The notes: generated by a model not told the origin, from the sequence alone. DNA of 44,362 bases from Saprospiraceae bacterium (GCA_043747725.1 JAYTON010000669.1:1-44362); one strand, 5' to 3'; counted from the first letter of the stretch, positions 239 through 42,045 are shown. Translations and numbers: made by a program.

Positions 239-1414
239 ATGAAAATGTGGATTATTATTATTTTATTAGGAATTGTATCATCGTGCAGTAAAAAGACAAC
301 TGATACACCCGCCAATCCTACTACACCAACGGTAACAGTAGATTTATCGCCGTTAAAATTGCCAAAAGGTGTCAAGCAAACTGATGTAGAATGGCAAAAT
401 ACTGAGGGGGTACTCACCTTTGTAAAAAACACAAATTTCAGCGACCAAGCCGATGCCGATTTGGACAAAGAAGGCTTTTATTGGACAGTGCCAAGCATTG
501 TAAAAAAAGTGGTAATCAATGCCAATGTCACAATCACAGGCGGTTTTCGGGCTATTGATGTCTTGACAATCGAAGGCAAAGGCCGAGCAACTTCCGAAAT
601 TTTTGGCACAAACACCAAAGGCTGGTCGCTCGGCGCAGACGGCATAGGAGACCCCAATACAAGCTGTACCAATGGCGCAAAAGGTGATGACCGTGTACAT
701 GATTGCGAAAAATGGAAATACGGGGCTGTTAGTTCCACCGCCACCGCATCGGTGACGGTAACGGTTCAAAATTTGACCATTACCAACGCCCGTTCTTATG
801 CCATTACGAGTTTTGGGTCAAAATACATCGTGGACAATGTCCATATCCGCAACACCCGACCCACACCAGATTACCACAGCAATTCAGACGGTATCAGTGC
901 AGGTGCTGGTTCAACAGTCAAAAACTCAAAAATTGATACATGGGACGATGAAATCAAACTCTATCGAGATATGATAGTAGAAAACGTCACATTGGTACAT
1001 AACAGCAATGGCGCACCGTTTCAACTCGGTTGGGGCAACGATAATAATGTGACCAATCACACAATAAAAAACGTCTTGGTTTTGGTAAATAATAAAAGCT
1101 ACACCAATTTAGCCCTGTTTTCAGCTTCTTTAACAAGCGGAAAAGTAACCCGAAATGTGACAATTGATGGTTTAAAAGTGCAATATGAAGCGACTCAAAA
1201 AGTGAGAAATACAGACCCCTTGCCTTTATTTTTAATGAAATCACCCGACGCTCTTTTAAATATTACTTTACCAGCCAATGGTGTGTTGGATATATCTGCG
1301 CCCGTTGGTTTGGGCGGTACAGGCAAAGTGACTATCAATGCTTGTGGGGTAACAACGGTTCAGAATAAATACAGTTGTGGCGATGCAAGCAAGGTAACAG
1401 GGTGTGGGTGGTGA
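239..1414 (+). CDS. Surface lipoprotein with right-handed beta-helix (pectate-lyase fold), carbohydrate-active enzyme candidate
   Basis: 391-aa ORF. The N-terminus MKMWIIIILLGIVSSC is a signal peptide with a lipobox Cys. It has rung-like strings NANVTITGG, VQNLTITNA, VDNVHIRNT and VENVTLVHN. SNSDGIS...TWDDEIKL resembles the NTDG/DD strings of GH28-type beta-helix hydrolases. The family cannot be assigned without a search. Confidence 0.6.
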   Translation: MKMWIIIILLGIVSSCSKKTTDTPANPTTPTVTVDLSPLKLPKGVKQTDVEWQNTEGVLTFVKNTNFSDQADADLDKEGFYWTVPSIVKKVVINANVTITGGFRAIDVLTIEGKGRATSEIFGTNTKGWSLGADGIGDPNTSCTNGAKGDDRVHDCEKWKYGAVSSTATASVTVTVQNLTITNARSYAITSFGSKYIVDNVHIRNTRPTPDYHSNSDGISAGAGSTVKNSKIDTWDDEIKLYRDMIVENVTLVHNSNGAPFQLGWGNDNNVTNHTIKNVLVLVNNKSYTNLALFSASLTSGKVTRNVTIDGLKVQYEATQKVRNTDPLPLFLMKSPDALLNITLPANGVLDISAPVGLGGTGKVTINACGVTTVQNKYSCGDASKVTGCGW

Positions 1415-1526
1415 TTAAAAATAATTTATTACCCCCTCAGTCATGCTTTCAGCTTGATGGAGCGAGACGCACCATATTTTCACCCTTTTCACCGTTAATT
1501 TTATCAAAATGAAAAATATAATACTT

Positions 1527-1555
1527 TGAGACATTTCAACCCACACAATGAGACA
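1527..1555 (+). promoter_or_regulatory. Direct repeat TGAGACA x2, 22-nt phase, upstream of the GH-A gene (candidate HTCS/AraC-type operator)
   Basis: TGAGACA lies at 1527-1533 and 1549-1555. The first copy shares the 12-mer TTTGAGACATTT with the susC-upstream site. Confidence 0.35.
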
Positions 1556-1600
1556 AAACACCAAGCAAAAACACAGACTTTTATCCCAAAATACTGTCAA

Positions 1601-4240
1601 ATGCGATTTATTATTCTTTTCCTATTTTTAATCAACACTTATTCAAGCATAGGGCAAAAACCTATTGCTGCCACTGTTCATATCAATACCCAACAAGGTG
1701 GACACCCGATTGTGGTGGGTAGTTCGGGTTTCAACGCCCGCATAGGCGATAAAGTATGGAGTTACAAACACCCCGATTTTATCAAGGCGGTAAAAACCTT
1801 GCGTCCGGGTTGGTTGCGCTATTGGAGTGGCACGGCGGGCGATGCTTTTTGTATGGCAACGGGGCAATACGACCAAGAGTATATCAATATGTTTGACAAA
1901 GGCGAGGCGTATGACCGTTTGTATCAATTTGTAGAAGTGAAGGGTCCACATCGGCTCATGGATTTGTATCAATTGATGGGGAGTATTAGCGGTAAAATTG
2001 TGATAACCGTCAATGCTTTTACCGAAACACCCGAAATGACAGCCGAACTCGCTCGATTTTGCAAAAACAATCATATCAAGGTAGAAGCATGGCAGTTTTG
2101 CAACGAACCTTATTTTTATATCCCTTCCCGACAGCGTTATTGGTGGAATAATGGTTTTGATTATGCTCAAAAAATGAAACCTCATGCCGATAGTATTGTA
2201 AAAGTTTTTCCCGAAGCCCGTTTGGCTTTGAATTTTACGTGGGATGGTATTTGGGATTTTATGAAAGAAATCAATCAATATCAAAAAGAGCGTGGCGCAT
2301 TTTGGAACACCTTTTCAAAACATTCTTATGCACCCCATACAGGCAAAGAAGAACCTTTCGCTGATGCTTATAAACGCTTGAATACCAAACTGTTAGAAGT
2401 CACAAGCCCCAAAGCCATGCGTGACATTGAGGAATGGACGCAAAAAGGTATTCCCATGCTTATCACCGAATTTGGGGTCTGGAATCGCCCTTTGAACGGC
2501 ATTATGTCTGCCGTTTACAATGCAGAATATACCTTGCGTCAATTGGCACATCCGAATACATGGCTGATTGGGTCGCATGAAATCAGCAATAAAGCCAAAC
2601 CAAAATTGAATTTCAATAATCAAATTGCAACGGCTTTTGAAAAAAATACCCCCCTCAGTACCACCGCCTTAAAAACCGATATTGAACTTGATGATGAAGG
2701 CAATGCCTTGAAAATACTGCACGAAGCCACCAACAATGCCGATTACATTTGGGAGACAACCCTAAAAGGTGGCGCAAAAGTAGAAGGGTTGAAAAATACA
2801 CAAGTGGAGGGCGTTTTTGGACTTGCTTTTCAAGGCATACACGATTATGATTATTTGGCATTGACAAATCGAAGTGATAAAGCCCATGAAATAACTGTTT
2901 TTTTTGATGATAAAAAACAAACCCAAACCTGCATCCGCACATGGATTGCAGGAGAACAAGCGGAAGCAAAAAATGTAGAAATTAAAACCGACGTGGTTAA
3001 AAATACGGATAAAATACTGTTACCACCGTTTAGTTCCATGCTGGTAAGTTGGGAGAAAAACCAAAAACGCCCCCCTCAGTATAGCCGCATTTACAAGGCT
3101 GAAAATAGGGCTGATGGCATTTTTTTAAAATGGTGGATACGCCCCGAAGCAACGGATTATGATTTAAAGATTACAGATACGCAAACGGGTAAAACCACTA
3201 CGCACACTATAAAAGGTACGGCAATGGATAGTTTTCTTTTCAAAAATGCTCAACGGAATACGACCTATCAATTTACGATAACCGCTAAAAACAGCATAGG
3301 ACAAAGCCGTGCATCTGACCCTGTAACCCTTGCAACAGCCTTACCACAACAACCCCAAATTTTCAAAATTGCCCCTCGCAGCAATCAACTGACGGTCTTT
3401 TGGCACAGTGTGGCAAATGCAATGGGCTATAAAGTGACAATACAATCGGAAGACAAAAGTTTTACTAAAGAGTATGATGCGGATAATGTTTTTGGCTATA
3501 AAATCTATGATTTACCCTTGAATACGCCTTGTAGAGTATCTATTTTAGCGTATAATGGTTTAGGAAATAGCGAAACGTCTCCCGCAATTAATTTTACGTG
3601 TAAAAAGAATATCCCTTTACCACCGAGCAATATTTCTGCCATTGAAAATGAAAAAGGCGGTATTGACTTGACATGGAACGCGCCAAAACAAGGAAATACT
3701 GTTGAGGCACGAAATCCCGATACAATCGGGAAGGGGGTCTTGTACCGTTTATATCGCGGTGAAAAACCCCATGATTTTACGGTTTTAAAAGACAATATAA
3801 AGGCACTTTCTTTCACCGATGAAACCGTCAAAGCGGGTAAAGATTATTTTTATACGGTCAAATCCTATACTTTAGAGGGTGGCGAATGTAGTTTTTATCC
3901 CAATATAGGCACTATTATTCGGAACAATACAAAAATCAGTCTTTGGGTTGATGCAGTTGATAAAAATAAGGAGGGGGGATATGATGTGACCGTCCGTTTC
4001 AAAAATATGCCTTTAGATGGTGAAAGCAATCTTGGTATTTTACTGTCCGATGTCAGTTATTTAAACGGTGAAGAAACGCTTTTTAAAGCCACCACCATTG
4101 ACAAGGATTTTTATACCGTTAAAATACCCGCTTCGGCACTGAAAAATAAAGCCACGTATGCCCTCAAAGCCACCATACAAACCAATGGAGGAACGCCTGT
4201 TGTGAGTTTGCCACCGCATAAGGGATTTAAAATGCAGTAG
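1601..4240 (+). CDS. Clan GH-A (TIM-barrel) glycoside hydrolase candidate with C-terminal fibronectin-III-like repeats
   Basis: ORF 1526..4240. I moved the start to the Met at 1601 (MRFIILFLFLINTYSSIGQ, signal peptide). WQFCNEPY is an NEP acid/base string and MLITEFG is a TEF nucleophile string, as in GH5/30/39/79-type enzymes. At least three FN3-like modules follow (GIFLKWW..., LTVFWHSVANAMGYKV, IDLTWNAP...YRLYRG). Confidence 0.7.
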   Translation: MRFIILFLFLINTYSSIGQKPIAATVHINTQQGGHPIVVGSSGFNARIGDKVWSYKHPDFIKAVKTLRPGWLRYWSGTAGDAFCMATGQYDQEYINMFDKGEAYDRLYQFVEVKGPHRLMDLYQLMGSISGKIVITVNAFTETPEMTAELARFCKNNHIKVEAWQFCNEPYFYIPSRQRYWWNNGFDYAQKMKPHADSIVKVFPEARLALNFTWDGIWDFMKEINQYQKERGAFWNTFSKHSYAPHTGKEEPFADAYKRLNTKLLEVTSPKAMRDIEEWTQKGIPMLITEFGVWNRPLNGIMSAVYNAEYTLRQLAHPNTWLIGSHEISNKAKPKLNFNNQIATAFEKNTPLSTTALKTDIELDDEGNALKILHEATNNADYIWETTLKGGAKVEGLKNTQVEGVFGLAFQGIHDYDYLALTNRSDKAHEITVFFDDKKQTQTCIRTWIAGEQAEAKNVEIKTDVVKNTDKILLPPFSSMLVSWEKNQKRPPQYSRIYKAENRADGIFLKWWIRPEATDYDLKITDTQTGKTTTHTIKGTAMDSFLFKNAQRNTTYQFTITAKNSIGQSRASDPVTLATALPQQPQIFKIAPRSNQLTVFWHSVANAMGYKVTIQSEDKSFTKEYDADNVFGYKIYDLPLNTPCRVSILAYNGLGNSETSPAINFTCKKNIPLPPSNISAIENEKGGIDLTWNAPKQGNTVEARNPDTIGKGVLYRLYRGEKPHDFTVLKDNIKALSFTDETVKAGKDYFYTVKSYTLEGGECSFYPNIGTIIRNNTKISLWVDAVDKNKEGGYDVTVRFKNMPLDGESNLGILLSDVSYLNGEETLFKATTIDKDFYTVKIPASALKNKATYALKATIQTNGGTPVVSLPPHKGFKMQ

Positions 4241-4323: not shown

Positions 4324-7300
4324 ATGTATTTACGCTACACAACACTCCTATATATTTGCCTGTGGTTTTTAAAACCACTTCAAGGACAAAATACCCAGCC
4401 TTATGCACACGCACAAGCGGAAACTTGGCTGCCCAAGCACCTCATTCGAGATATTTATCAAGATGCAAAAGGGGGGATTTGGATTTGTACAAATGCAGGT
4501 TTGTACAAATACAATTTACACGCACTTGAAAACATCAATTTGACTAAAAAAACAACGACCCAATTTTTAAATAATGCGACTTCAACCATAGCGGAAGACA
4601 GTTTTGGAAATATTTTAGTCGGAACGGAAAGCGGTTTGGGCGTTTTGGAAAACAACGGCAATTGCACTATTTTATCGAAAACAGATGAAACCATTAGTAA
4701 AATTAAGGTAGAAACATCGGGCGTAGTTTGGTGGATGACCCTGAATGGCAAATTATACAAAGCGCACCCCCTCAGTAAAAATCAATACAACGACGCCTTT
4801 TTAGTGTATGAAACGAGTAAAATTTTAGGAAAAGATACGGAAGTGAATACTTTTGACCTTTTGCCAACGGGCGAAATTGCCATAGGGTCAAATAAGGGAT
4901 TTTATTTATACAATCAAAAAACAGGTAGCCTTATCCCTTCAACAATAACCCAAAATATTACCACTATTTTCACCGATAAAAATCAAAATATATGGGTGGG
5001 TACAAGCAATAGCGGCTTGTTTTTAAAAGAAGAAAACACGACTTCTTTCCGTAAAATTGCTTTAACGGGTACAAATATCGAGCGCAATCAGCAAATCATT
5101 TCAATAAAAAACTTAGCTGAAACAAGCCTTTTAGTCACCACACCACAAAATATTTACCTTGTTTCTGAAAAAGATTTAAGCGTAAAATTGTTGAAAGAAA
5201 ATATATTTCCCAACCGAGAAAGTTATATCACCACCGCTTTTGCAGACCGCACGGCTAATATTTGGTTGGGCAGCCCCATTGGTTTGTATAAAATGAAAAA
5301 ACAGGGAGTTAAAGCCACCTTTTTTCCCATAGAAACGAAGGATTTTTTTCTCAATAATCAAATTCATCACCTGTACAGCGAGGGTAATTCCCTTTGGATA
5401 GGCACTTCTTCAGATGGCTTGTACCGAATGAATACCGCTACTTTGCAACAATCTAAAGCAGATATACCCCTTAAAACTATCAGGCGTATTCGTAAATCGC
5501 AACGGGGCGATTGGATTGTAGCAGGGAGCAGCAAAATAGGCATTTATACTGAGGGGGGTGGTATAAAAATGCTGCATGAAACGGTGGGAACAGCGATGGA
5601 TTTATTAGAAATTGCGGAAGGTGAGTGGTGGATTACGACGTGGACATCGGGTTTGACCCGCTTCTTTGAAACGCCTGCCGATTCTATTAAAAGCCCACAC
5701 ACAGCCATTTTTAATAAAGCCAATGCGTCTTTTAATAAAAATATTCACCCATTTTGCCTCATCAAAGACCGTGAACAAAATGTTTGGATAGGCACAAGGG
5801 GAAATGGGCTGTATAAAATAAATCTGCCCCAACAAACCATTCAACATTATGGAGGCGACACAAAAGGGCATATAGCGTCTAATCGCATTTTATGCCTTAA
5901 AGAAGACAGCAAGGGCAATATTTGGGTAGGCACTCGGGGCGATGGTTTGCTGTTATATCAAGCAAAAGCCGATGATTTCAAAATTTTTGATGCTAAAAAT
6001 GGCTTGATGTCTAATACCATTTGCGCTATCGAAGAAGGGCAATCGGGTAGTTTATGGCTATCCACTTTAAACGGTTTAGCAAAAATACGAGATATTTCGA
6101 TGCCTTTTCAAACCTTTGGCAGCGAGGCAGGTATTAACAGTCCCGAATTTCATTTCAATGCTTCGGCAAAAGACGCACAGGGCTATTTGTATTTTGGCAA
6201 TGTGGCGGGTATTTACCGCCTCAAAGATGTGGATAATATGGCAACCGCACAAGTCCCTTTTGTATGGACACAGTTTGACATTTTAAATGCCCAAAATACT
6301 GAGGGGGGTGTCAAAGAACGGTTAGTTGCACCGAATGAAGCGGGGAAAACGGTAGAATTGGCGCATAACCAAAACAGTTTTCGCATTGGATTTGCTTTGT
6401 TGGATTATACAACACCTGAAAAAAACCAATATGCGTATAGGCTGATTGGAAAAGATACGACTTGGCAATATATAGAAGGAGTACGCCCTGTGGTGGAATA
6501 TGTGGATTTGGCTACGGGCGATTATCTTTTTGAAGTACGCAGTGCCAACAGTTACGGGCAGTGGATGACGGCAACAGCGAGCCTTAAAATTGCCATTAAT
6601 CCTTCGTTTTGGTGGTCGAGGACGGCATTTTTCTTCTATTTTTTATTGATAGGTATATTGGCTATCACGGCTTATATCTTGTGGCAAAATTGGTTTAAAC
6701 TCAATAGACAGCTTCAAGAAGAACACGAAATAGCGCAAAAACAAACCCAGCAAATCGTGTTTTACACCGATTTATCACATGAAATTAAAAACCGTTTATC
6801 GCTCATTTTGGGTCCGTTGGAGCAAGCCTTACACGATAAAAAAGTGAATACGGCTGTGTTGGATAATCTCTATGACCAAGCTCTGCGGGTGAAAAAATTG
6901 ACCGACCAAATTATGAACATTCGTAAAGGCGAAAGTGGGATGTTTAATTTGAGCGTGACGGAGGAAAATATCAAATCTCGTTTGGAAAAACTGTATCGAG
7001 AAGCCCAACCTTTAGCCGTTTTAAAAAATATCCAGTTTGATTTTAACAGTCAAAAAGAAACTTTACGCGGGTGGTGCGATGAGGAATTATTAGAGATTAT
7101 TGTCCAAAATTTATTGAATAATGCGATAAAATACTGCAAAATTGGCGGAGAAGTAAGCCTAAAAATAGATGCTCAATATTTGGGGGGCATGGATTTGCCT
7201 TGTAAAACCGAAGTAGGAGAGGGCAACTATCTGATTTGCACAGTGCAAGATACAGGTGTGGGCATACCGCAAGCGGAAATTGACAAAGTGGTGCAACCGT

Positions 7301-8373: not shown

Positions 8374-8384
8374 CCCCCTCAGTA
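8374..8384 (-). repeat. Intergenic copy of the 11-mer TACTGAGGGGG
   Basis: Exact CCCCCTCAGTA on the + strand, directly after the HTCS stop codon. The 17-mer ACCCCCTCAGTATTTTT is shared with 10051-10067. Confidence 0.95.
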
Positions 8385-10051: not shown

Positions 10052-10062
10052 CCCCCTCAGTA
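10052..10062 (-). repeat. Intergenic copy of the 11-mer TACTGAGGGGG
   Basis: Exact match, 92 nt beyond the start of the ATPase gene at 8395..9960. Confidence 0.95.
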
Positions 10063-13598: not shown

Positions 13599-13609
13599 CC
13601 CCCTCAGTA
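13599..13609 (-). repeat. Intergenic copy of the 11-mer TACTGAGGGGG
   Basis: Exact match, 3 nt after the susC stop. Confidence 0.95.
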
Positions 13610-20932: not shown

Positions 20933-21028
20933 TCTGTATTCTTCTGTTTTATTTCTTTATAAATAAAGATAAATTCCTTATTTTATTCACCCCTCAGTAT
21001 TTTATTAAAAATTTAAGCAAAAGTTATA

Positions 21029-25074: not shown

Positions 25075-25085
25075 CCCCCTCAGTA
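25075..25085 (-). repeat. Intergenic copy of the 11-mer TACTGAGGGGG
   Basis: Exact match, between the GH27 and DUF5060 genes. Confidence 0.95.
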
Positions 25086-27093: not shown

Positions 27094-27104
27094 CCCCCTC
27101 AGTA
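27094..27104 (-). repeat. Intergenic copy of the 11-mer TACTGAGGGGG
   Basis: Exact match, just downstream of the GH43 relic stop. Confidence 0.95.
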
Positions 27105-27124: not shown

Positions 27125-27204
27125 TTAAAACGGCATTTCCTTGACAATTTTAATCGTATGCCCCACATCTTCCATACGTGCATCTCCAAAACGCCCCCTC
27201 AGTA
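27125..27204 (-). pseudogene. Decayed duplicate of the GH43 gene 3' end
   Basis: The reverse strand translates to GRFGDARMEDVGHTIKIVKEMPF*. The intact GH43 C-terminus is EGRLMM...RIFEMEDLGNTIKIKNEMPFEN*. Nucleotide similarity to 27978-28130 continues through the downstream 11-mer. The copy has an internal deletion and a frame shift and lacks an upstream ORF. Confidence 0.5.
27194..27204 (-). repeat. Copy of the 11-mer TACTGAGGGGG inside the GH43 relic
   Basis: Exact match. Confidence 0.95.
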
Positions 27205-27792: not shown

Positions 27793-27943
27793 AGGTGATA
27801 AATACCTAAAAAAAATTACACTCTTAAACTTATTAGAGAATAATATGAAATTGGAAACAAAATAAATCACACACAATCCTTTTTCGTTAATAAAAACCTC
27901 AAAACCCTTCACAATACTATTAAAATCTAAAAATGTAGGTCAA

Positions 27944-27990
27944 AATACTGAGGGGGTGCTTCCATGTTGCGGAAGCACTCCCTCAGTATT
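27944..27990. terminator. Hairpin built from an inverted pair of the 11-mer motif, bidirectional terminator candidate
   Basis: AATACTGAGGGGGTGCTTCC (27944-27963) and GGAAGCACTCCCTCAGTATT (27971-27990) flank a 7-nt loop, with 19/20 pairs and A/T runs on both sides. It lies between convergent genes, 12 nt after the GH43 stop. Confidence 0.55.
27946..27956 (+). repeat. Intergenic copy of the 11-mer TACTGAGGGGG
   Basis: Exact match. It forms the left arm of the 27944-27990 hairpin. Confidence 0.95.
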
Positions 27991-28001
27991 TTCCCTCAAA
28001 A

Positions 28002-29033: not shown

Positions 29034-29044
29034 CCCCCTCAGTA
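29034..29044 (-). repeat. Intergenic copy of the 11-mer TACTGAGGGGG
   Basis: Exact match, 37 nt upstream of the GH43 start. Confidence 0.95.
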
Positions 29045-31197: not shown

Positions 31198-32997
31198 TCA
31201 ATTTCCTTTCATTTTATCCTTCATCCAAGTAGATTTATTCGCCTTCGTCACCCGTTCTTTATCCAATTTTATCACCTTCCTATCGTAGGTATAAAAACCA
31301 TTCATTTCATTTTCAACGTCCGTCCATTGGGTATAAACGGCAGCACTTAGACCGCCTTGCAGGAATTTATCGGTTATCATGCCGATAAATTTTTCATATT
31401 CTGCCGTAGCATCTTCCTTGCCTTTGTAATTGTAATGCACCCAAGGACCGTCCACGTCCCAAATATGTCCTTCGATATTGTAGCCGATTGCGCCATATTC
31501 GCCGTTGGCTGTGGCACGTTTGCTACTGACCAAAGGCAAAGACGGTGGGCGATAACTGTGATTGTCTTTGATATGCCCAACTTCATAATCCACGCTCGGT
31601 TTTCGGGCATCAACGCCACTATTGCCTGTAACCATGCGACTTGGGTCGAGTGCCATGACAAAATTGGTCAATCGTTCCACATCATACAGCCCCCAATGCT
31701 CGTTAAAAACGACCCAATTCACGATACTTGGGTGATTCCAATGCTGTTTGACCATGTATTGCAATTCGGTTTCAAATTGTATTTTTTCTTCTTCGGTGCG
31801 TTGTTTCATGGTGCTGGGCATATCCTGCCAGACCAAAATGCCCATTTTGTCGCACCAATAATACCAGCGTTGTGGCTCTATTTTGATATGCTTGCGTATC
31901 ATATTAAAACCCCAATTTTTGGTTTGTTCAATGTCCCATTTCAAGGCTTCATCGGTAGGGGCGGTGTAGATGCCATCGGGCCAGTAGCCTTGGTCGAGAG
32001 GTCCGAATTGGAATAAGAATTCATTATTCAGAGCCAAACGGGGCGTGTTTTTATAGGATTTTAAACTAATTTTACGCATACCGAAATAACCTTGTACTTC
32101 ATCTTTGGCTTCTAAACTATCTTTTAAAACAATTTTCACATCGTATAAAAACGGATTATCGGGCGACCATAGTTTAGGCTTCGGAATACTGAGGGGGGTA
32201 GGTTTATTCAAATCGGCGGTGGTTCTGCCGACTTCTGTTGTGCCATCAAAAGCTATAATTTCCGCTTTCCAACGACTGCCGACTTGTTGCGAGGGATTGA
32301 CCGTTATTGTTATTTCTTCATTATCAATATCGGGTGTGATGTGAAAATCCTTGATACTCACTTTCGAGACAGGTTCCAGCCAAACCGTTTGCCAGATGCC
32401 CGAAGAAGGGCAATATGAATACCGTTGGGGGTTCATAAAACGGCTATTTTCCTGTTTTCCCACGGCAATTGCTTCATCATTGCCAGGGTCAAAGACGGAG
32501 ACAATGAGTTCTTGATTGCCTTTTTCGGTTAAAAAAGGGGTAATATCGTAGGAAAAAGCATCGTACCCGCCTCGATGTGTGCCGACACTTTTACCGTTCA
32601 AATAGACCGTCGCTTCCCAATCCACTGCGCCAAAATGGAGTAAAATGCGCTGCCCTTTCCACTCGTTAGGTACAGTAAAAGTTCGGCGATACGTTGCCCG
32701 ACGACTATCAAACTGTTTCCGCACACCCGATAAAGCCGATTCCCACGGATAAGGCACCAATATCTGCCCGTCCAATTTTTTATTAAAAACAAAAGACTGT
32801 CCTTCTTGAAATTCCCATAATCCGTTCAAATTTTGCCATTTATCCCGCACCATCATCGGGCGAGGATATTCAGGCAATGGATTTTGAGGATTGACCTTTC
32901 CCGCCCATTCGGTACTGAGGGGGGTGTTTGCCATTTTCCAGTTTTGGGAAAAGGCGAGGTTTTGGAGCATTAATAAAAGTAGAATTAGTTTTTTCAT
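31198..32997 (-). CDS. GH2 glycoside hydrolase (beta-galactosidase-like)
   Basis: ORF 31198..33153. I moved the start to Met 32997 (MKKLILLLLMLQNLAFSQ, signal peptide). Strings are NLNGLWEF, HFGAVDWEATVYLNG, WNHPSIVNWVVFNEHWG (acid/base NE) and ANGEYGAIG (nucleophile E). Confidence 0.85.
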   Translation of the reverse strand: MKKLILLLLMLQNLAFSQNWKMANTPLSTEWAGKVNPQNPLPEYPRPMMVRDKWQNLNGLWEFQEGQSFVFNKKLDGQILVPYPWESALSGVRKQFDSRRATYRRTFTVPNEWKGQRILLHFGAVDWEATVYLNGKSVGTHRGGYDAFSYDITPFLTEKGNQELIVSVFDPGNDEAIAVGKQENSRFMNPQRYSYCPSSGIWQTVWLEPVSKVSIKDFHITPDIDNEEITITVNPSQQVGSRWKAEIIAFDGTTEVGRTTADLNKPTPLSIPKPKLWSPDNPFLYDVKIVLKDSLEAKDEVQGYFGMRKISLKSYKNTPRLALNNEFLFQFGPLDQGYWPDGIYTAPTDEALKWDIEQTKNWGFNMIRKHIKIEPQRWYYWCDKMGILVWQDMPSTMKQRTEEEKIQFETELQYMVKQHWNHPSIVNWVVFNEHWGLYDVERLTNFVMALDPSRMVTGNSGVDARKPSVDYEVGHIKDNHSYRPPSLPLVSSKRATANGEYGAIGYNIEGHIWDVDGPWVHYNYKGKEDATAEYEKFIGMITDKFLQGGLSAAVYTQWTDVENEMNGFYTYDRKVIKLDKERVTKANKSTWMKDKMKGN

Positions 32998-33081: not shown

Positions 33082-33092
33082 TACTGAGGGGG
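33082..33092 (+). repeat. Intergenic copy of the 11-mer TACTGAGGGGG
   Basis: Exact match, upstream of the GH2 start. The 15-mer AAAATACTGAGGGGG is shared with 35061-35075. Confidence 0.95.
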
Positions 33093-35064: not shown

Positions 35065-35075
35065 TACTGAGGGGG
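35065..35075 (+). repeat. Intergenic copy of the 11-mer TACTGAGGGGG
   Basis: Exact match, 5 nt beyond the symporter stop. Confidence 0.95.
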
Positions 35076-35079: not shown

Positions 35080-36780
35080 TTACCAAAAGCGCACATAAAT
35101 AGCCGATAACAGAAGTAAAGTAATCGCAATCAAAGCTGTTGTGCGACCATCTAATTTGAACATAGACGCATCAATTTCAAAGGCATTTTTGTCTTCTTTT
35201 GGACCTAACGAACTCACCAATACCATTGCCAATACTGCAAAACCAAAAGCCAAACCCATACAAATCAAAAATGGAATTTCGTAACTGCCTTTACCATTTG
35301 GAAAGGCTGTATAAAGGAAGGTTTCATTGCCCAATACTGAGGGGGCAGCTTCGTTGAAAAAGACGGATAAAATGAACCCGACCAACAAACCCACGATACC
35401 CGCAGTGCCCGTTGTACGCTTCCAAAAGAAACCCAACATAAACATCGCAAACACACCTGGAGAGATAAAACCCGTATATTTTTGAATAAAATTGAAACCA
35501 CCTTCACCACCAATGCCGAGGCTATCGTCCCAAGTCAATAAAACCGCAAAAATCATGGCTAACACGATTGTAATACGCCCAACACGGACTAACTGCTTTT
35601 CTGTCGCATCTTTTTTGATGTAATCTTTGTAAAGGTCGAGGGTGAAAATAGTGGAAATTGAATTCGCTTTTCCTGCCAAACTCGCCACAATTGCCGCCGT
35701 CAATGCCGCCAAAGCCAACCCTTTCAAACCATTGGGCAAAAAAGCGAGAATGGACGAATACGCATTGTCGGAATTGAATTGACCGCCTGCCGTCATACCT
35801 GCTTGCAACTCGCCGTTTTGGTAAAGCACATACGCCGCAATACCTGGCAACATAACGATAATAGGCATCATCAATTTCAAAAGACCTGCGAATAAAATAC
35901 CTGTTCTTGCCGTTTTCAAATCTGCTCCCAAAGCCCGTTGTGTGATGTATTGGTTGCAACCCCAATAGTTGAGATTGACAATCCATTGACCCGCAAAATA
36001 CATCGCAATGCCTGGCAACATCAAGTATTTGTTGATATACGCTTGACTTGCATTGGCATCAGGTTTTGCTAAAATCATGTGAAAATGGTCGTCCGCTTTT
36101 AGGACGAGTTGATTAAAACCCGCCATAACATCTTTGCCCATACCGAATTTTTCACTCACCATTGTTAAAGCCATATACGTTGTTGCCAAGCCGCCAACAA
36201 TAAGCACTAACACTTGAATGACATCGGTATAACCAATGACTTTCATACCACCCAAAGTGATAATGAGGGCAAAAAAGGCTAAAAGCACCAAAATAACATG
36301 AAAATAACCGCCCCCTACTAAATTATCAATCGCCAAAGCCCCCAAGTAGAGGATTGACGTGAGGTTGACCAAGACATAAAGGAAAAGCCAAAAAATAGCC
36401 ATCGTCAAACTGACCGTCGAATTGTATCGTGTTTTCAAAAACTGAGGCATCGTAAAAATGCGGTTTTTGAGATAAATGGGCATAAAAAAGACGGCTATGA
36501 TAATCAAGGCAATCGCCGCAATCCATTCATAAGCCGCTACCGCAATACCGACTGAAAAACCATTGCCCGACATACCGATAAATTGCTCGGCTGAAATATT
36601 GGAAGCAATGAGGGAAGCCCCAATTGCCCACCAAGTCAATGAACCTTCTGCTAAAAAATAATCTTTTGTGTCGGCTGCCTCTTTTCGTTTTTGGTTATAA
36701 ATCCAAAAGCCATAAGAAGCAACAATGACAAAATAAATGGCGAAAACCGCCCAATCTGCAAAATTAAGACCTGTTTGCAT
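35080..36780 (-). CDS. Sodium:solute symporter (SSF/SGLT family), probable sugar transporter of the ara operon
   Basis: 566 aa with many hydrophobic spans. The SSF string DYFLAEGSLTWWAIGASLIASNISAEQFIGMSG is present. It is the last gene after araA-araB-araD on the same strand. Confidence 0.85.
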   Translation of the reverse strand: MQTGLNFADWAVFAIYFVIVASYGFWIYNQKRKEAADTKDYFLAEGSLTWWAIGASLIASNISAEQFIGMSGNGFSVGIAVAAYEWIAAIALIIIAVFFMPIYLKNRIFTMPQFLKTRYNSTVSLTMAIFWLFLYVLVNLTSILYLGALAIDNLVGGGYFHVILVLLAFFALIITLGGMKVIGYTDVIQVLVLIVGGLATTYMALTMVSEKFGMGKDVMAGFNQLVLKADDHFHMILAKPDANASQAYINKYLMLPGIAMYFAGQWIVNLNYWGCNQYITQRALGADLKTARTGILFAGLLKLMMPIIVMLPGIAAYVLYQNGELQAGMTAGGQFNSDNAYSSILAFLPNGLKGLALAALTAAIVASLAGKANSISTIFTLDLYKDYIKKDATEKQLVRVGRITIVLAMIFAVLLTWDDSLGIGGEGGFNFIQKYTGFISPGVFAMFMLGFFWKRTTGTAGIVGLLVGFILSVFFNEAAPSVLGNETFLYTAFPNGKGSYEIPFLICMGLAFGFAVLAMVLVSSLGPKEDKNAFEIDASMFKLDGRTTALIAITLLLLSAIYVRFW

Positions 36781-36813: not shown

Positions 36814-37515
36814 TTAGATTTCTTGCCCATAATAAGCCCCTTCACCATGTTTTCGGAAGTAATGCTTATCTTTTAATGTCTGTTTTATCTCTGATACTGA
36901 GGGGTTAAGTTGGCGGGTTAAATACGCCATTTTAGCCAATTCTTCTAAAACGGAGGCATTATACACTGCTTTTGCGGCTGTTTTACCCCAAGTGAAAGGT
37001 CCATGACAGGCAACCAAAACCATTTCGACTTCATCGGGTGAAAGGTTTTGTTTTTTGAACATATCCAAAATTTGATTGCCTGTTTCATGTTCATAATCGC
37101 CTTGTATCATGGCATCAGTCATAACATCTGTAACGGGTACAGAGGGAATAAGATGGTCGGCATGGGTTGTTCCTAAATTGGGAATGGGCATTAAGGCTTG
37201 CGCCCACGCCACCGCATAAGTAGAATGGGTGTGACAAATGCCGCCAATATTGTCAAATTTTTGATACAGTAAAATATGGGTTTTGGTATCAGAAGACGGG
37301 CGCATTTTGCCGTCAATGACCTTGCCTTCTATATCCAAAATGACAATATCTTTTACCTTTAAATCCGAATACGGAACGCCACTTGGTTTGATACCTACTA
37401 TGCCCTCTTTGCGGTCAATAGCGGAGACATTACCAAAGGTATAAATCGCCAATTTTTGTTTAGGTATCTCCATATTGGCTTCGTAAACTTGCTCTCTTAG
37501 ACTTTTATATTTCAT
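36814..37515 (-). CDS. araD: L-ribulose-5-phosphate 4-epimerase
   Basis: 233 aa. Strings are FGNVSAIDR and ICHTHSTYA (class II aldolase/epimerase fold). The C-terminus is KHGEGAYYGQ. It is adjacent to araB and araA. Confidence 0.9.
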   Translation of the reverse strand: MKYKSLREQVYEANMEIPKQKLAIYTFGNVSAIDRKEGIVGIKPSGVPYSDLKVKDIVILDIEGKVIDGKMRPSSDTKTHILLYQKFDNIGGICHTHSTYAVAWAQALMPIPNLGTTHADHLIPSVPVTDVMTDAMIQGDYEHETGNQILDMFKKQNLSPDEVEMVLVACHGPFTWGKTAAKAVYNASVLEELAKMAYLTRQLNPSVSEIKQTLKDKHYFRKHGEGAYYGQEI

Positions 37516-37521: not shown

Positions 37522-39153
37522 TTATTTCATTTTTTCTGTAAAATCACCCATTTTCACATACTTTTCATACAATTTTTGATAAATATCTGCCTTATTTTCA
37601 TTCGGCAAATACTCGGCATCAAAACCCGAAGACATGGCTTTTTGGGCATCTTCCAGCGTTTTATAAACACCTGCTGCCGTTGCTGCACACATCGCCGCCC
37701 CCAAAGCACAGGCTTGCTCAGATTTGACCACTTTAATCGGCATTTGCAGCACATCTGCGAGAATTTGCATCACAAAAGGCGATTTTTTAGCCACACCACC
37801 AATCGCCACGACTTTTTCTATTTTAACCCCTTCGCTCCGAAAACGGTCAACAATTGCCTTTGAACCAAATGCCGTAGCTTCTACCAATGCCTTGAAAATA
37901 GCGGGGGCATCATGGCTCAAATCCAAGCCCGAAATCAAACCTTTTAAAGTATGGTTGGCATCGGGCGTGCGTCTGCCATTGAACCAATCGAGTGCCACAG
38001 GGTCGTTGATACTGAGGGGTAGGGTAGCGGCTCGTTCAGCGAGTTTGGGAATGATATTTTCCGCCATCTTTTCCGCTTGTTTTTCAGTCATAAAGGTTTT
38101 TAAAGGAAAACTCAACAGCCTTTGAAACCACGCATAAACATCACCATAAGCCGATTGCCCCGCTTCCATGCCCAACATATTCGGGATAATAGAGCCATCT
38201 ACTTGCCCACAAATGCCTTTTATCAATAAATGTCCCACTTCTTCATTCGGTGCTATGAGCATATCGCAAGTAGAAGTTCCCATCACGCGCACGAAAGTAT
38301 AAGGCTCGATGTACGCTCCGACTGCGCCCATGTGGGCATCAAAAGCCCCTACGCCAATCGTGACATTTTCAGAAAGCCCTAATTTTTTAGCCCATTTTTT
38401 AGAAAGCGTACCCATATCCCTATCAGAAGTATAGGTATCTCTAAACAAACGGCTTCTTAAACCTTTTAAAACAGGGTCTAATTGAGTTAAAAAATCCTCT
38501 GAGGGCAAGCCTTCAAATGCTTCATGCCACATCGCTTTATGTCCTGCGGCACAACGAGAGCGTTTTATACTGAGGGGGTCGGTATTGCCCGTCAATTCAG
38601 CCGAAACCCAATCGCAATGCTCAACCCACGAAAAAGCGGCTTTTTCTACTTGTTTATCTACCCTTAAAGTGCGGAGTATTTTAGCCCAAAACCATTCAGA
38701 ACTGTATATGCCGCCGACATATTTTGTAAAATCGGTGTCCCATCTATGCGCCAATTGGTTGATTTCCTCCGCTTCTTTGTTGGCAGTATGGTCTTTCCAA
38801 AGGATAAACATACCGTTGGGATTGTCCGCAAATTCGGGCAACATACTGAGGGGGGTGCCGTTTTTATCCACCGCACAAGGCGTAGAACCTGTGGTGTCAA
38901 CAGAAATACCCACAACGTTTTTTGCGATGTCTTTCCCTGCTTTTTTCAAAGCCTGTTTGATGACTACCTCCAATCCTTCAAGATAATCCAAAGGGTGTTG
39001 GCGGTATTGCGATTGTGCAGGGTCGCAATACAAGCCTTTTTTCCAACGGGGGTAGTAAAAAACGTGGGTAGCGACTTCTTCACCGTTTAGGGCATTGACT
39101 ATTAAGGCACGGACGCTGTCTGTTCCGTAATCAAGACCTATGACATATTTCAT
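37522..39153 (-). CDS. araB: Ribulokinase (FGGY family)
   Basis: 543 aa. The N-terminus is YVIGLDYGTDSVRAL. FGGY-type C-terminal strings are present (AIGGVAKKS, ACALGAAM). It lies between araA and araD. Confidence 0.9.
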   Translation of the reverse strand: MKYVIGLDYGTDSVRALIVNALNGEEVATHVFYYPRWKKGLYCDPAQSQYRQHPLDYLEGLEVVIKQALKKAGKDIAKNVVGISVDTTGSTPCAVDKNGTPLSMLPEFADNPNGMFILWKDHTANKEAEEINQLAHRWDTDFTKYVGGIYSSEWFWAKILRTLRVDKQVEKAAFSWVEHCDWVSAELTGNTDPLSIKRSRCAAGHKAMWHEAFEGLPSEDFLTQLDPVLKGLRSRLFRDTYTSDRDMGTLSKKWAKKLGLSENVTIGVGAFDAHMGAVGAYIEPYTFVRVMGTSTCDMLIAPNEEVGHLLIKGICGQVDGSIIPNMLGMEAGQSAYGDVYAWFQRLLSFPLKTFMTEKQAEKMAENIIPKLAERAATLPLSINDPVALDWFNGRRTPDANHTLKGLISGLDLSHDAPAIFKALVEATAFGSKAIVDRFRSEGVKIEKVVAIGGVAKKSPFVMQILADVLQMPIKVVKSEQACALGAAMCAATAAGVYKTLEDAQKAMSSGFDAEYLPNENKADIYQKLYEKYVKMGDFTEKMK

Positions 39154-41812: not shown

Positions 41813-41843
41813 CTTTATTTTATTTGGGGTAAAAATACAAAAT

Positions 41844-41904: not shown

Positions 41905-41989
41905 AAACCTTAAAAATACCCCATCAGTATTTCTTCAAGCTTTGATTTACGGGTAAAATCTTAGGAAAATCTAAGATTATAATTACATT

Positions 41990-42026
41990 AAAAAAGCCTT
42001 TAAACGCAATATCTCAAGGCTTTTTT
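41990..42026 (-). terminator. Intrinsic terminator after the PUL lipoprotein gene
   Basis: AAAAAAGCCTT...AAGGCTTTTTT forms an 11-bp stem with a 15-nt loop, 20 nt downstream of the stop at 42046. Confidence 0.55.
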
Positions 42027-42034
42027 ATAAAAAA

Positions 42035-42045
42035 TACTGAGGGGG
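42035..42045 (+). repeat. Intergenic copy of the 11-mer TACTGAGGGGG
   Basis: Exact match, abutting the lipoprotein stop codon, between the stop and the terminator. Confidence 0.95.

What the first reader, a model, noticed from the sequence alone, without database searches (positions are those of the whole stretch)
400..42045. Hyper-abundant non-palindromic 11-mer TACTGAGGGGG in genes and spacers (uptake-sequence-like genomic signature)
I counted 30 exact copies, 15 per strand. TACTGAGGGGG starts on the + strand at 400, 5547, 6297, 16859, 17373, 24751, 27946, 32187, 32913, 33082, 35065, 35335, 38568, 38844 and 42035. Its complement CCCCCTCAGTA starts at 2650, 3071, 4767, 8374, 10052, 12423, 13599, 19832, 25075, 25148, 26630, 27094, 27194, 28397 and 29034. 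One-mismatch copies start at 1432, 20989, 22780, 27978, 36895, 38010, 40191 and 41919. For a given 11-mer on both strands of 44,362 nt, the uniform-composition expectation is 2 x 44,362 / 4^11, about 0.02. Flanks extend the consensus to roughly AAAATACTGAGGGGG(T/G), and 9 of the 11 spacer copies carry the A-run. Nineteen copies lie inside unrelated CDSs. In the sense orientation the motif always reads T-E-G (9 of 9), because the TAC-TGA frame would create a stop. In the antisense orientation it reads P-L-S (7), P-P-Q-Y (2) or P-S-V (1). So the conserved unit is DNA, not a peptide. Spacer copies often sit within a few nt of stop codons, and one inverted pair forms a terminator-like hairpin. This combination of about one copy per 1.5 kb, no strand bias, intragenic copies in tolerated frames and inverted pairs acting as terminators is what is known for Neisseria DUS and Pasteurellaceae USS. 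I am not aware of such a signal being described in Bacteroidota. Alternatives are a binding site for a nucleoid or recombination protein, or a repair or recombination hotspot.
Basis: partly seen in the sequence, partly recalled or inferred. Interest (0 to 1): 0.9.

Follow-up and report, generated by a model that had tools for sequence, protein, structure and literature searches.

The report
Uptake-signal-like DNA word in Saprospiraceae
A 10-12-base DNA word (A-TACTGAGGGG-G) occurs about once per kilobase, thousands of times above chance, inside genes and between them in a clade of uncultured freshwater Saprospiraceae (Bacteroidota); it behaves like the DNA uptake sequences of Neisseria and Haemophilus, which have no described counterpart in this phylum.

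Summary
It is not a long repeat. The constrained unit is A-TACTGAGGGG-(G/T), and the flanks differ between copies apart from weak A/T-rich blocks phased at about 10.5 bp on one side.

The word is clade-wide. At least 21 species-level Saprospiraceae MAGs carry it. Five loci chosen by AraB orthology, not by the motif, hold 0.65-1.4 copies per kb. Four sister lineages, including one with 78% identical AraB, hold none.

Inside genes it arises in place by synonymous and non-synonymous substitutions, uses all five stop-free frames, and is kept at orthologous codons while synonymous sites are near saturation. It is 2-4 times denser between genes, 3.5 times rarer in accessory or mobile genes, and shows no replichore-type polarity.

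The best reading (about 50%) is a DNA-uptake or self-recognition sequence spread by biased recombination. Uptake itself is untested. It differs from DUS/USS in four ways: inverted-pair terminators are rare, the mismatch spectrum is much sharper, some phage contigs carry it at host density, and orientation clusters weakly within genes. I found no literature on it.

The parts
400..410 (+). exact copy, in ORF 239-1414 (+), sense, N-T-E-G-V, AAAA upstream
1432..1442 (-). one-mismatch copy GACTGAGGGGG, spacer 1414-1526
2650..2660 (-). exact copy, ORF 1526-4240 (+), antisense, P-L-S
3071..3081 (-). exact copy, ORF 1526-4240 (+), antisense, P-P-Q-Y
4767..4777 (-). exact copy, hybrid histidine kinase 4300-8373 (+), antisense, P-L-S
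5547..5557 (+). exact copy, hybrid histidine kinase, sense, T-E-G
6297..6307 (+). exact copy, hybrid histidine kinase, sense, T-E-G, AAAA upstream
8374..8384 (-). exact copy between convergent genes; 0 nt after the stop of 4300-8373 and 10 nt from the stop of 8395-9960
10052..10062 (-). exact copy in divergent spacer 9960-10207, AAAA upstream
12423..12433 (-). exact copy, SusC 10207-13596 (+), antisense, P-L-S
13599..13609 (-). exact copy 2 nt after the SusC stop codon
16859..16869 (+). exact copy, sulfatase 15720-17195, sense, T-E-G
17373..17383 (+). exact copy, sulfatase 17203-19098, sense, T-E-G
19832..19842 (-). exact copy, ORF 19239-20084 (-), sense, T-E-G
20989..20999 (-). TACTGAGGGGT (perfect 10-mer core) in the ParA-Rep spacer
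22780..22790 (+). one-mismatch copy TACTGAGAGGG inside Rep ORF
24751..24761 (+). exact copy, ORF 23646-25031 (-), antisense, P-P-Q-Y
25075..25085 (-). exact copy in spacer 25031-25119
25148..25158 (-). exact copy, ORF 25119-27011 (-), sense, T-E-G
26630..26640 (-). exact copy, ORF 25119-27011 (-), sense, T-E-G
27094..27104 (-). exact copy in spacer 27011-27379, AAAA upstream
27194..27204 (-). exact copy in spacer 27011-27379
27946..27956 (+). exact copy, left arm of the inverted pair
27978..27988 (-). one-mismatch copy TACTGAGGGAG, right arm of the inverted pair
27942..27992 (.). 22-bp-stem hairpin formed by the inverted pair, with A-run and T-run on either side, between convergent genes 27379-27792 (+) and 28002-28997 (-); likely a bidirectional terminator
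   Evidence: free energy -41.5 kcal/mol, z = -9.3; terminator function is inferred
28397..28407 (-). exact copy, GH43-like ORF 28002-28997 (-), sense, T-E-G
29034..29044 (-). exact copy in divergent spacer 28997-29193, AAAA upstream
32187..32197 (+). exact copy, GH2 ORF 31198-33153 (-), antisense, P-L-S
32913..32923 (+). exact copy, GH2 ORF, antisense, P-L-S
33082..33092 (+). exact copy, in the TTG-extended 5' end of the GH2 ORF (P-S-V) or just upstream of its true start
35065..35075 (+). exact copy 4 nt from the stop codon of 35080-36780 (-), in a convergent spacer
35335..35345 (+). exact copy, Na+/solute symporter 35080-36780 (-), antisense, P-S-V
36895..36905 (+). TACTGAGGGGT in araD (-), antisense, P-S-V; present in 3 of 5 clade orthologues
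38010..38020 (+). TACTGAGGGGT in araB (-), antisense, P-L-S (alignment column 378); present in 3 of 5 clade orthologues
38568..38578 (+). exact copy in araB, antisense, P-L-S (column 192); present in all 5 clade orthologues; outgroups have P-L-T or P-L-Q
38844..38854 (+). exact copy in araB, antisense, P-L-S-M (column 100); present in all 5 clade orthologues; outgroups have P-L-S-L or P-L-A-L with other codons
40191..40201 (+). TACTGAGGGGT in araA, antisense, P-S-V (column 153); present in all 5 clade orthologues
41919..41929 (-). one-mismatch copy TACTGATGGGG in spacer 41872-42046
42035..42045 (+). exact copy abutting (0 nt) the stop codon of 42046-43284 (-), AAAA upstream

Best explanation
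The word A-TACTGAGGGG-(G/T), together with weak helically phased A/T tracts on its 5' side, is a lineage-specific DNA uptake or self-recognition sequence of one Saprospiraceae clade. It would be the functional analogue of Neisseriaceae DUS and Pasteurellaceae USS.

Proposed mechanism:
1. A surface DNA receptor of a competence apparatus binds the 10-bp core on double-stranded DNA. The phased A/T tracts ease bending or kinking at the start of uptake.
2. Fragments that carry the word are imported preferentially and recombine with the homologous locus.
3. Alleles with a perfect word therefore replace near-miss alleles (molecular drive). Words accumulate wherever protein or regulatory constraints tolerate them, and are kept perfect.

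Shown here:
- the signal is at the DNA level;
- it originates by substitution in place;
- it is maintained while synonymous sites saturate;
- it is restricted to one clade;
- it is depleted in accessory DNA;
- it carries phased flanks.

Inferred and not shown: uptake, competence, the receptor and the drive.
For: 1. Size of the excess. The perfect 10-mer occurs 106 times against 0.03 expected (about 3,400-fold) in 119.6 kb made up of the window and four loci chosen by AraB orthology. One-mismatch forms are only about 6-fold enriched.

2. Clade restriction. At least 21 species-representative Saprospiraceae MAGs carry the word, while non-Saprospiraceae hits are single chance copies. The AraB-chosen loci L121, L122, L123, L124 and L248 hold 0.65-1.4 copies per kb. 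The sister lineages L125, L126, L127 and L249 hold none.

3. Not a repeat element. The flanks are unconserved, and there are no indels relative to outgroup orthologues.

4. DNA-level constraint. All five stop-free frames are used: TEG 172, LRG 63, PLS 91, PSV 88, PQY 45; sense and antisense are balanced at 235:224. The word is created by synonymous changes plus A/T/G-to-S and L-to-M/I replacements at near-miss peptides. Nine of nine motif codons are identical in five species, whereas only 22% of amino-acid-conserved codons are.

5. Phased flanks. A 10.5-bp A/T periodicity is phase-locked to the word on one side, with amplitude 0.052 against 0.004-0.013 in controls. It is present in coding and in intergenic copies. 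[quoted passage not shown]

6. Distribution. The word is 2-4 times denser in intergenic DNA, most of all between convergent genes, and 28% of intergenic copies that have an adjacent gene 3' end (40 of 141) lie within 20 nt of it. One inverted pair forms a strong hairpin.

7. Accessory DNA. Accessory or mobile-like genes hold 0.27 copies per kb against 0.96 per kb elsewhere (P = 1e-4). DUS are likewise described as enriched in the core genome and absent from recently acquired genes.

8. Spacing. Copies closer than 250 bp are fewer than expected (10 against 23).

9. Precedent in the phylum. Riemerella species are naturally competent and prefer their own DNA, with no signal yet identified (PMC7965970).
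Against: - No competence, uptake assay or receptor is known for Saprospiraceae, and none could be tested here. These organisms are known only as MAGs.
- Close inverted pairs are rare (9 among about 650 copies), and the terminator scan does not pick up the copies. By contrast, about half of DUS/USS are reported to lie in predicted terminators.
- The mismatch spectrum is much sharper than published for DUS/USS. The drop from perfect to one-mismatch forms is about 560-fold here against 82-92-fold, and two-mismatch forms are depleted two-fold (PMC1939737).
- Several bona fide phage structural and packaging regions carry the word at host-like density. An uptake drive explains this only for long-resident prophages.
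- Neighbouring copies share orientation more often than chance (57%), mainly within genes. This is not a described property of DUS/USS.
Confidence: 0.5

Rival explanations
1. It is a cytoplasmic 'self' or recombination signal: a word read inside the cell by a nuclease/helicase, repair or defence complex. It would be Chi-like in logic, marking resident DNA as self or stimulating recombination, and it would be maintained by selection on every replicon that lives in these cells.
For: - The word is G-rich and non-palindromic, like the known Chi sites (own knowledge).
- It is present at host-like density in phage terminase, tape-measure, baseplate and sheath regions, and on a replicon with a plasmid-type origin. 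That is expected if any DNA in the cell benefits from carrying it.
- Very few one-mismatch copies exist, which suggests strong direct selection.
- Orientation is weakly non-random.
Against: - The constrained unit of 10-12 bp and the roughly 3,400-fold excess far exceed any known Chi, which is 5-8 nt with a modest excess (own knowledge).
- There is no replichore-type polarity: 15+/15- in 44 kb with several orientation switches. The orientation clustering is gene-level.
- Phased A/T tracts imply recognition of bent double-stranded DNA, not of a single strand threaded through a helicase.
- The plasmid replication module and the defence-type genes in the same cell lack the word.
Confidence: 0.2
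2. It is a dense array of binding sites for an abundant sequence-specific architectural (nucleoid-organising or DNA-bending) protein specific to this clade.
For: - Helically phased A/T tracts extend about 45 bp to one side of the core, which is typical of sites where DNA is wrapped or bent.
- Spacing is roughly even, with a deficit of gaps under 250 bp.
- The word is present on chromosome-like contigs, on a plasmid-like replicon and on phage contigs.
Against: - No known nucleoid protein needs a perfect 10-bp word. Sites of such proteins are degenerate and are not thousands-fold over-represented (own knowledge).
- Forcing amino-acid changes in conserved enzymes (G to S in AraA, A/T to S in AraB) is a high price for architecture.
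- Depletion in accessory genes fits slow accumulation better than a structural need.
Confidence: 0.12
3. It is a function-less by-product of a sequence-specific conversion process, such as a very-short-patch-type repair or oligonucleotide-templated gene conversion. The process would turn near-miss sequences into the perfect word without the word being read for any purpose.
For: - Perfect copies vastly outnumber one-mismatch copies, and two-mismatch relatives are depleted two-fold, as if the pool of near-misses were being converted.
- Copies arise by substitution at pre-existing near-miss sites.
- The process would act on every replicon in the cell, including phages.
Against: - No known repair bias has a 10-12-bp non-palindromic specificity (own knowledge).
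- It does not predict the phased A/T flanks, the intergenic and 3'-end enrichment or the deficit of closely spaced copies.
- An uptake drive also converts near-misses, so the mismatch spectrum does not discriminate between the two.
Confidence: 0.1
4. The copies are members of a mobile or REP/MITE-like repeat family, or remnants of a conserved peptide motif.
For: Copy number is high, and one inverted pair forms a hairpin.
Against: - Flanks are unconserved beyond -3 and +11.
- 70% of copies lie inside unrelated genes without indels relative to outgroups.
- Five different reading frames on two strands encode five different peptides.
- There is no Rfam match.
Confidence: 0.01

Closest known systems
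[quoted passage not shown]
   Same: - A short non-palindromic core occurs at about 1 per kb on both strands, in genes (stop-free frames only) and in spacers.
- One-sided helically phased A/T tracts are present (PMC3458573).
- The word is lineage-restricted.
- Copies arise by substitution at near-miss codons.
- Spacing is fairly even.
   Different: - The sequence is unrelated and the phylum is different.
- The mismatch spectrum is sharper (against PMC1939737).
- Few copies are in inverted pairs or terminators.
- No competence or uptake data exist.
- Some phage contigs carry the word at host density.
Neisseriaceae DNA uptake sequence (DUS, AT-GCCGTCTGAA; receptor ComP)
   Same: - A 10-12-nt word is very strongly over-represented and makes up about 1% of the DNA (0.84 copies per kb x 11 nt).
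- It is shared by many related species.
- It is depleted in accessory or recently acquired genes.
- Inverted pairs can form terminator hairpins.
   Different: - No dialects were seen. Sister lineages have no word at all rather than a variant.
- Inverted-repeat terminators are the exception here.
- DUS has no phased flanks.
- No ComP-type receptor is known or was tested in this clade.
Chi sites (RecBCD/AddAB recognition sequences)
   Same: It is a non-palindromic, G-rich, over-represented chromosomal word that could act as a 'self' mark, and it occurs on phage DNA.
   Different: Chi is 5-8 nt, only a few-fold over-represented and co-oriented with replication (own knowledge). Here the unit is 10-12 nt, the excess is about 3,400-fold, the window holds 15+/15- in 44 kb, and phased flanks are present.
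Cyanobacterial highly iterated palindrome HIP1 (GCGATCGC)
   Same: It is a hyper-abundant short word found inside genes and spacers across a clade, maintained at the DNA level, with no established function (own knowledge).
   Different: HIP1 is an 8-bp palindrome linked to methyltransferase sites. This word is asymmetric, longer and has one-sided phased flanks.

Membership tests
DNA uptake enhancing sequences (DUS/USS) as a functional class | Short (9-12 nt) word present at hundreds to thousands of copies per genome (about 1 per kb), far above expectation | tested here: met
   The density is 0.65-1.4 copies per kb in five loci chosen independently of the motif and 0.77 per kb in the window. 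The excess is about 3,400-fold over an order-3/4 Markov model. Whole-genome counts were not available.
DNA uptake enhancing sequences (DUS/USS) as a functional class | Both orientations, with no replication-linked polarity | tested here: inconclusive
   The window holds 15+/15-, and sense to antisense is 235:224. Neighbouring copies share orientation in 57% of cases, mostly within genes. No closed genome was available to test against ori/ter.
DNA uptake enhancing sequences (DUS/USS) as a functional class | Found in coding DNA only in stop-free frames, at permissive sites, as a DNA-level rather than peptide-level signal | tested here: met
   All five stop-free frames are used. The TAC-TGA frame occurs only where TGA is the gene's own stop codon (12 copies). 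The word is made by synonymous and non-synonymous changes at near-miss sites.
DNA uptake enhancing sequences (DUS/USS) as a functional class | Intergenic copies frequently occur as inverted repeats within transcriptional terminators (about half of all DUS/USS in predicted terminators, per the abstract of 10.1101/2025.10.24.684340) | tested here: not met
   The window has one pair. There are 9 close inverted pairs among about 650 copies. Copies do not coincide with terminator-like sites. Intergenic and 3'-end enrichment is nevertheless present.
DNA uptake enhancing sequences (DUS/USS) as a functional class | Shared by related species of one lineage and absent outside it | tested here: met
   At least 21 species-level Saprospiraceae MAGs carry it. 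It is absent from four sister loci with 73-78% AraB identity.
DNA uptake enhancing sequences (DUS/USS) as a functional class | Enriched in core DNA and depleted in recently acquired DNA | tested here: met
   The density is 0.27 per kb in accessory or mobile-like genes against 0.96 per kb elsewhere (P = 1e-4). The gene classes were assigned post hoc.
DNA uptake enhancing sequences (DUS/USS) as a functional class | Graded over-representation of mismatched forms (molecular-drive signature, PMC1939737) | tested here: inconclusive
   One-mismatch forms are 6-fold over-represented, but two-mismatch forms are at 0.5-fold and three-mismatch forms at 0.8-fold. The published values for one and two mismatches are positive.
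DNA uptake enhancing sequences (DUS/USS) as a functional class | DNA carrying the word is taken up preferentially by competent cells | not testable with these tools
   This needs uptake or transformation competition assays. The clade is known only from MAGs.
DNA uptake enhancing sequences (DUS/USS) as a functional class | Competence machinery and a cognate receptor (ComP in Neisseria; ComN predicted in Pasteurellaceae) | not tested
Neisseriaceae DUS or Pasteurellaceae USS (sequence families and their dialects) | Sequence is a dialect of GCCGTCTGAA or of AAGTGCGGT/ACAAGCGGT | tested here: not met
   TACTGAGGGG shares only CTGA with DUS. The organism is Bacteroidota (SusC/SusD loci; MAG titles).
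Chi / KOPS-type polar chromosomal words | Strong co-orientation over tens to hundreds of kb; 5-8-nt word | tested here: not met
   The window holds 15+/15- with several orientation switches over 44 kb. The constrained unit is 10-12 nt.
REP / MITE / other interspersed repeat families | Conserved sequence beyond about 20 nt, usually palindromic, intergenic and inserted | tested here: not met
   Flank information is under 0.2 bit per position. 70% of copies are intragenic. There are no indels relative to outgroup orthologues.

The most novel reading that the evidence does not exclude
The word is not an uptake signal but a new kind of clade-specific, genome-wide 'self' word read inside the cell on bent double-stranded DNA. 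The word would be maintained perfect on chromosome, plasmid-type replicon and resident phages alike. The phased flanks, the near absence of one-mismatch copies, the depletion of near-misses and the gene-level orientation preference would be signatures of that unknown reader. The less radical but still new reading is my best explanation, at about 0.5 probability: a third, independently evolved DNA-uptake specificity system, the first outside Proteobacteria.
Probability: 0.25. Interest if true: 0.9.

Novelty: new variant of a known kind. Interest (0 to 1): 0.82.

Why it matters
Sequence-specific DNA uptake has been established in only two proteobacterial families, and for decades these have been the only models for how bacteria recognise conspecific DNA. 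Here a word with the same genomic footprint occurs across at least 21 uncultured Saprospiraceae species in another phylum. That points either to a third independent origin of uptake specificity or to a new type of genome-wide self-mark.

This would make several things directly testable:
- whether natural transformation shapes the genomes of abundant freshwater and glacier-stream Bacteroidota;
- which receptor reads the word (pull-down with AAAATACTGAGGGGGT);
- whether phased A/T tracts are a general physical requirement of uptake.

There are also practical uses. The word is a near-diagnostic marker for binning this clade and its plasmids and phages from metagenomes. It could also serve as a handle for genetic manipulation if isolates become available.

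Tried and rejected
- Long repeat, REP or MITE family: rejected on flank logos and the absence of indels.
- Peptide motif: rejected because five frames on two strands are used.
- Structured RNA: no Rfam family at gathering threshold and no tRNA.
- Replichore-polar signal (Chi/KOPS): the window has 15+/15-. The weak neighbour correlation (57%) turned out to be mainly within ORFs (100 same, 56 different), and the correlation with GC skew is weak (r = 0.28).
- Fixed orientation after stop codons, suggested by four window copies: not general.
- Terminator role for most copies: not supported.
- Dialects or an equivalent word in sister lineages: L125-L127 and L249 contain only clustered intergenic tandem or palindromic repeats.
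- A second over-represented word (TTTATCAAA in L124 and L248): not general and without a consistent context.
- Bro-N genes as motif-linked mobile units: they form a diverged paralogue family that is not flanked by the word.
- Bacteroidota -7 promoter element (TAnnTTTG) in the reverse complement plus T-run: only a partial resemblance, and it cannot apply to intragenic copies in both orientations (reasoning).
- PLSDB search with 12 kb around the Rep module: no match.
- Literature: no hit for the word, or for uptake sequences or competence in Saprospiraceae or Bacteroidota.
- Competence genes: not searched. The held clade DNA is about 18% of one genome equivalent, and their presence would not discriminate between the explanations.

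Full report
**Observation.**
All 30 exact copies of TACTGAGGGGG, 15 per strand, are at the coordinates given. Dinucleotide-preserving shuffles give a mean of 0.01. The eight one-mismatch copies are also present. Four of them are TACTGAGGGGT, so the window holds 34 perfect copies of the 10-mer TACTGAGGGG and 35 of TACTGAGGG. Markov models of order 1-5 trained on the motif-masked window predict 0.002-0.005 copies. The finder's frame counts, A-run counts and the single hairpin pair were reproduced.

**What the unit is.**
The window flanks show no conservation beyond an A-run at -4 to -1 and T/G at +1. A logo from 644 distinct instances in the window and related loci shows:
- A at -1 (74%), with weaker A at -2 and -3;
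- an essentially invariant TACTGAGGGG (98% G at the tenth base);
- G or T at the eleventh base (69% and 27%);
- less than 0.2 bit per position everywhere else.

On the 5' side only, the A/T content oscillates with a 10.5-bp period. Peaks lie at -1 to -3, -10 to -13, -20 to -23, -31 to -33 and -42 to -44. The amplitude is 0.052, against 0.004 for TACTGA not followed by GGG and 0.013 for generic A-runs. The oscillation is equally strong for coding (0.051) and intergenic (0.056) copies. Read on the other strand, the element is CCCCTCAGTA followed by helically phased T-rich tracts. [quoted passage not shown]

**Where the window comes from.**
The window encodes SusC/SusD pairs, sulfatases, GH2 and GH43 enzymes, araBAD and a hybrid histidine kinase, so it is Bacteroidota. 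It is part of a 75-kb metagenome contig. It also carries a plasmid-type replication module: ParA, a 25-bp perfect palindrome, 22-bp iterons and a Rep initiator.

- 105 loci come from 21 different assemblies: 20 titled Saprospiraceae and one titled only Bacteroidota. Most of these hold several further copies of the 10-mer per 8 kb.
- The other eleven loci each have a single copy, as expected by chance. Nine come from other taxa. The tenth is a Lewinella MAG, a genus usually placed in Saprospiraceae/Lewinellaceae. The eleventh is a 3-kb contig binned as Methylotenera, with 40% GC, which is possibly mis-binned.

**Unbiased test of density and of the clade boundary.**
I fetched loci by orthology to the window's ribulokinase (AraB), not by the motif.

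| Locus | AraB identity | GC | Copies of TACTGAGGGG | Length |
|---|---|---|---|---|
| L121 | 91% | 39-43% | 23 | 16.4 kb |
| L122 | 85% | 39-43% | 17 | 15.6 kb |
| L123 | 81% | 39-43% | 15 | 21.6 kb |
| L124 | 80% | 39-43% | 17 | 21.6 kb |
| L248 | 79% | 39-43% | 14 | 21.6 kb |
| L125 | 78% | 49% | 0 | 21.6 kb |
| L249 | 77% | 41% | 0 | 21.6 kb |
| L126 | 75% | 49% | 0 | 21.6 kb |
| L127 (Lewinellaceae) | 73% | 56% | 0 | 21.6 kb |

The sister loci contain only ordinary clustered intergenic repeats. In the window plus L121-L124 (119.6 kb), observed against expected counts under an order-3/4 Markov model are:
- perfect 10-mer: 106 against 0.03, about 3,400-fold;
- one mismatch: 11 against 1.8, about 6-fold;
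- two mismatches: 18 against 37, about 0.5-fold.

For comparison, Bakkali (PMC1939737) reports excesses of 183- and 392-fold for perfect USS and DUS and 2-4.8-fold for one mismatch, with still positive values at two mismatches. The signal here is therefore stronger and sharper.

**How copies arise and persist.**
In araB, araA and araD, copies sit at orthologous codons in all or some of the five clade species, and the outgroups have no copy. At those codons the outgroups encode near-misses: P-L-A, P-L-T, P-L-G, P-A-V or S-E-G. The clade reaches the word through synonymous choices (CCC CTC AGT) plus replacements: A, T or G to S, and L to M or I for the adjacent A/T. One of these is G to S in an otherwise invariant HPLGIGGK segment of AraA. 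There are no indels, so nothing was inserted.

Third-codon-position identity among clade species is only 49-65%. Only 22% of amino-acid-conserved codons are identical in all five species. Yet 9 of 9 codons of the three universally shared copies are identical. Clade-wide, all five stop-free frames are used (TEG 172, LRG 63, PLS 91, PSV 88, PQY 45), and sense to antisense is 235:224. Twelve copies supply a gene's own TGA stop codon. The constrained object is therefore DNA, and it is maintained against both synonymous drift and protein preference.

**Distribution.**
Densities are 0.65 per kb in ORFs, 1.3 in divergent spacers, 1.9 in tandem spacers and 2.7 in convergent spacers. Of the 141 intergenic copies that have an adjacent gene 3' end, 40 lie within 20 nt of it. 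One caveat applies: most loci were selected with an AAA-prefixed 14-mer, which favours intergenic copies.

Genes that are variably present between syntenic loci, or that belong to plasmid-maintenance or defence-type modules, hold 0.27 copies per kb against 0.96 elsewhere (P = 1e-4). These are Bro-N, RhuM, KilA-N, Uma2, GmrSD, Fic, AAA_21/RloB, ATPase_2, ParA and Rep, together with a few small ORFs of unknown function and the origin spacer. The classes were defined post hoc. Gaps under 250 bp between copies are under-represented (10 against 23 expected).

Only 9 close inverted pairs exist among about 650 copies. Copies do not coincide with terminator-like sites in the window, apart from the 27946/27978 hairpin.

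**Orientation.**
The window is 15+/15- with several switches but ends in a run of '+' copies. Across loci, neighbours share orientation in 307 of 534 cases (p = 6e-4). This persists after within-locus shuffling. It is strongest for copies within one ORF (100 same, 56 different) and weak between ORFs (216 same, 175 different). This is a gene-level preference of unknown cause, not replichore polarity. Closed genomes are needed to exclude a weak replication-linked component.

**Phages.**
A scan of IMG/VR found mostly single chance hits. About a dozen loci hold 3-11 copies at host-like density. PHROG matches show terminase, virion protein, tape-measure, baseplate and tail-sheath genes in them. Phages or prophages of this clade therefore also carry the word.

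**Interpretation.**
No described kind of genomic word other than uptake sequences combines all of the following:
- a strict 10-12-bp asymmetric core;
- about one copy per kb on both strands;
- intragenic copies in every tolerated frame;
- enrichment in spacers and depletion in accessory DNA;
- restriction to a clade of related species;
- one-sided helically phased A/T tracts.

Natural transformation with a preference for self DNA exists in Bacteroidota (Riemerella), and no signal has been identified there (PMC7965970). A 2025 survey still lists only Neisseriaceae and Pasteurellaceae as having such sequences. Searches found nothing on this word, or on uptake sequences or competence in Saprospiraceae or Bacteroidota.

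I therefore favour, at about 0.5, an uptake or self-recognition sequence spread and kept perfect by biased uptake plus homologous recombination. What is shown is the DNA-level maintenance, the mode of origin, the phylogenetic restriction and the physical architecture. The uptake step, the receptor and the drive are inferred.

Several differences keep rival explanations alive: the rarity of terminator pairs, the very sharp mismatch profile with depleted near-misses, the phage copies and the gene-level orientation clustering. The rivals are a cytoplasmic self or recombination signal (0.2), an architectural binding-site array (0.12) and a function-less conversion bias (0.1). A repeat-element or peptide explanation is excluded.

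**Membership and novelty.**
By sequence and taxon it is not a DUS or USS dialect. As a functional class, five sequence-level criteria are met: abundance, stop-free frames, lineage restriction, depletion in accessory DNA, and the phased one-sided flanks of the Hin-type USS. Two are inconclusive (strand symmetry and the graded mismatch excess), one is not met (frequent terminator pairs), and the two defining functional criteria (preferential uptake and a receptor) are untestable here. I rate it a new variant of a known kind, with a real chance (about 0.25) that it is something categorically new.

Noticed in passing
window 20135-23437: This is a plasmid-type replication and partition module inside a polysaccharide-utilisation contig. 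It consists of ParA (20135-20932), a 25-bp perfect palindrome (21436-21486), 3.5 copies of a 22-bp iteron (21556-21631) and a Rep initiator (21863-23437). GC is 28-38%. There is no perfect 11-mer between 19842 and 24751. The 75-kb source contig may be a plasmid or chromid whose cargo has chromosome-like motif density.
   Followed up: partly
L210, L223, L188, L190/L215, L152 (IMG/VR contigs): Phage structural and packaging regions (terminase, virion protein, tape measure, baseplate, tail sheath, ParB-methyltransferase) carry 6-11 copies of TACTGAGGG per 6-14 kb, which is host-like density. Whether these phages are temperate or lytic was not determined.
   Followed up: partly
window 32187-42045; loci generally: Neighbouring copies share orientation more often than chance (57%), especially within one ORF (100 same, 56 different). 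The window ends with 11 consecutive '+' copies. The cause is unknown. It is not simple sense/antisense bias, which is balanced at 235:224.
   Followed up: partly
L121 2397-5861; L122 6798-7637; L123 482-1321 and 11635-15333; L124 8419-9432 and 11729-14298; L248 8417-9430 and 11772-14612; window 40697-41872: Singleton Bro-N, RhuM, KilA-N, Uma2, GmrSD and Fic genes are inserted at different places between the conserved ara genes in different species. The Bro-N proteins form a diverged multi-copy family (51-59% identity, with one pair at 82%). These inserts are motif-poor.
   Followed up: partly
window 29193-31171: An AAA_21 ATPase and an RloB-domain gene form a pair, a defence-type module. GC is 32-37% and there are no motif copies. 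It sits between glycoside-hydrolase genes.
   Followed up: no
L249 5156-6200 and 9857-20900: The motif-free sister lineage has clustered intergenic palindromes (ACACCTAACAGGTTTTAAAACCTGTTAGGTGT). It also has a second intergenic repeat ending in ATTCCTAATTCA, found mostly as inverted pairs about 100 bp apart. These are REP/MITE-like elements, not a dispersed word.
   Followed up: partly
L039 454-4127: Five motif copies lie exactly 915 bp apart on one strand in a Salar de Ascotan Saprospiraceae MAG. This indicates a tandem 915-bp repeat, probably a repeated protein domain, in which each unit carries the word.
   Followed up: no
window+L121-L124 (119.6 kb) for the near-miss counts; window+L121-L124+L248 (141 kb) for the gap counts: Two-mismatch relatives of the 10-mer are depleted two-fold (18 against 37), and gaps under 250 bp between copies are rarer than exponential (10 against 23). 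Both fit a process that converts near-misses and saturates locally, but neither is explained.
   Followed up: partly
L104: A 3-kb contig binned as Methylotenera (Betaproteobacteria) has 40% GC and carries one copy of the 14-mer. It is possibly a mis-binned Saprospiraceae fragment. The word could serve as a binning marker.
   Followed up: no
window 34971-35016: A 20-bp-stem A/T-rich hairpin followed by a T-run lies downstream of ORF 33519-34952. It is a canonical-looking terminator about 50 bp from motif copy 35065, so the motif is not itself the terminator there.
   Followed up: no
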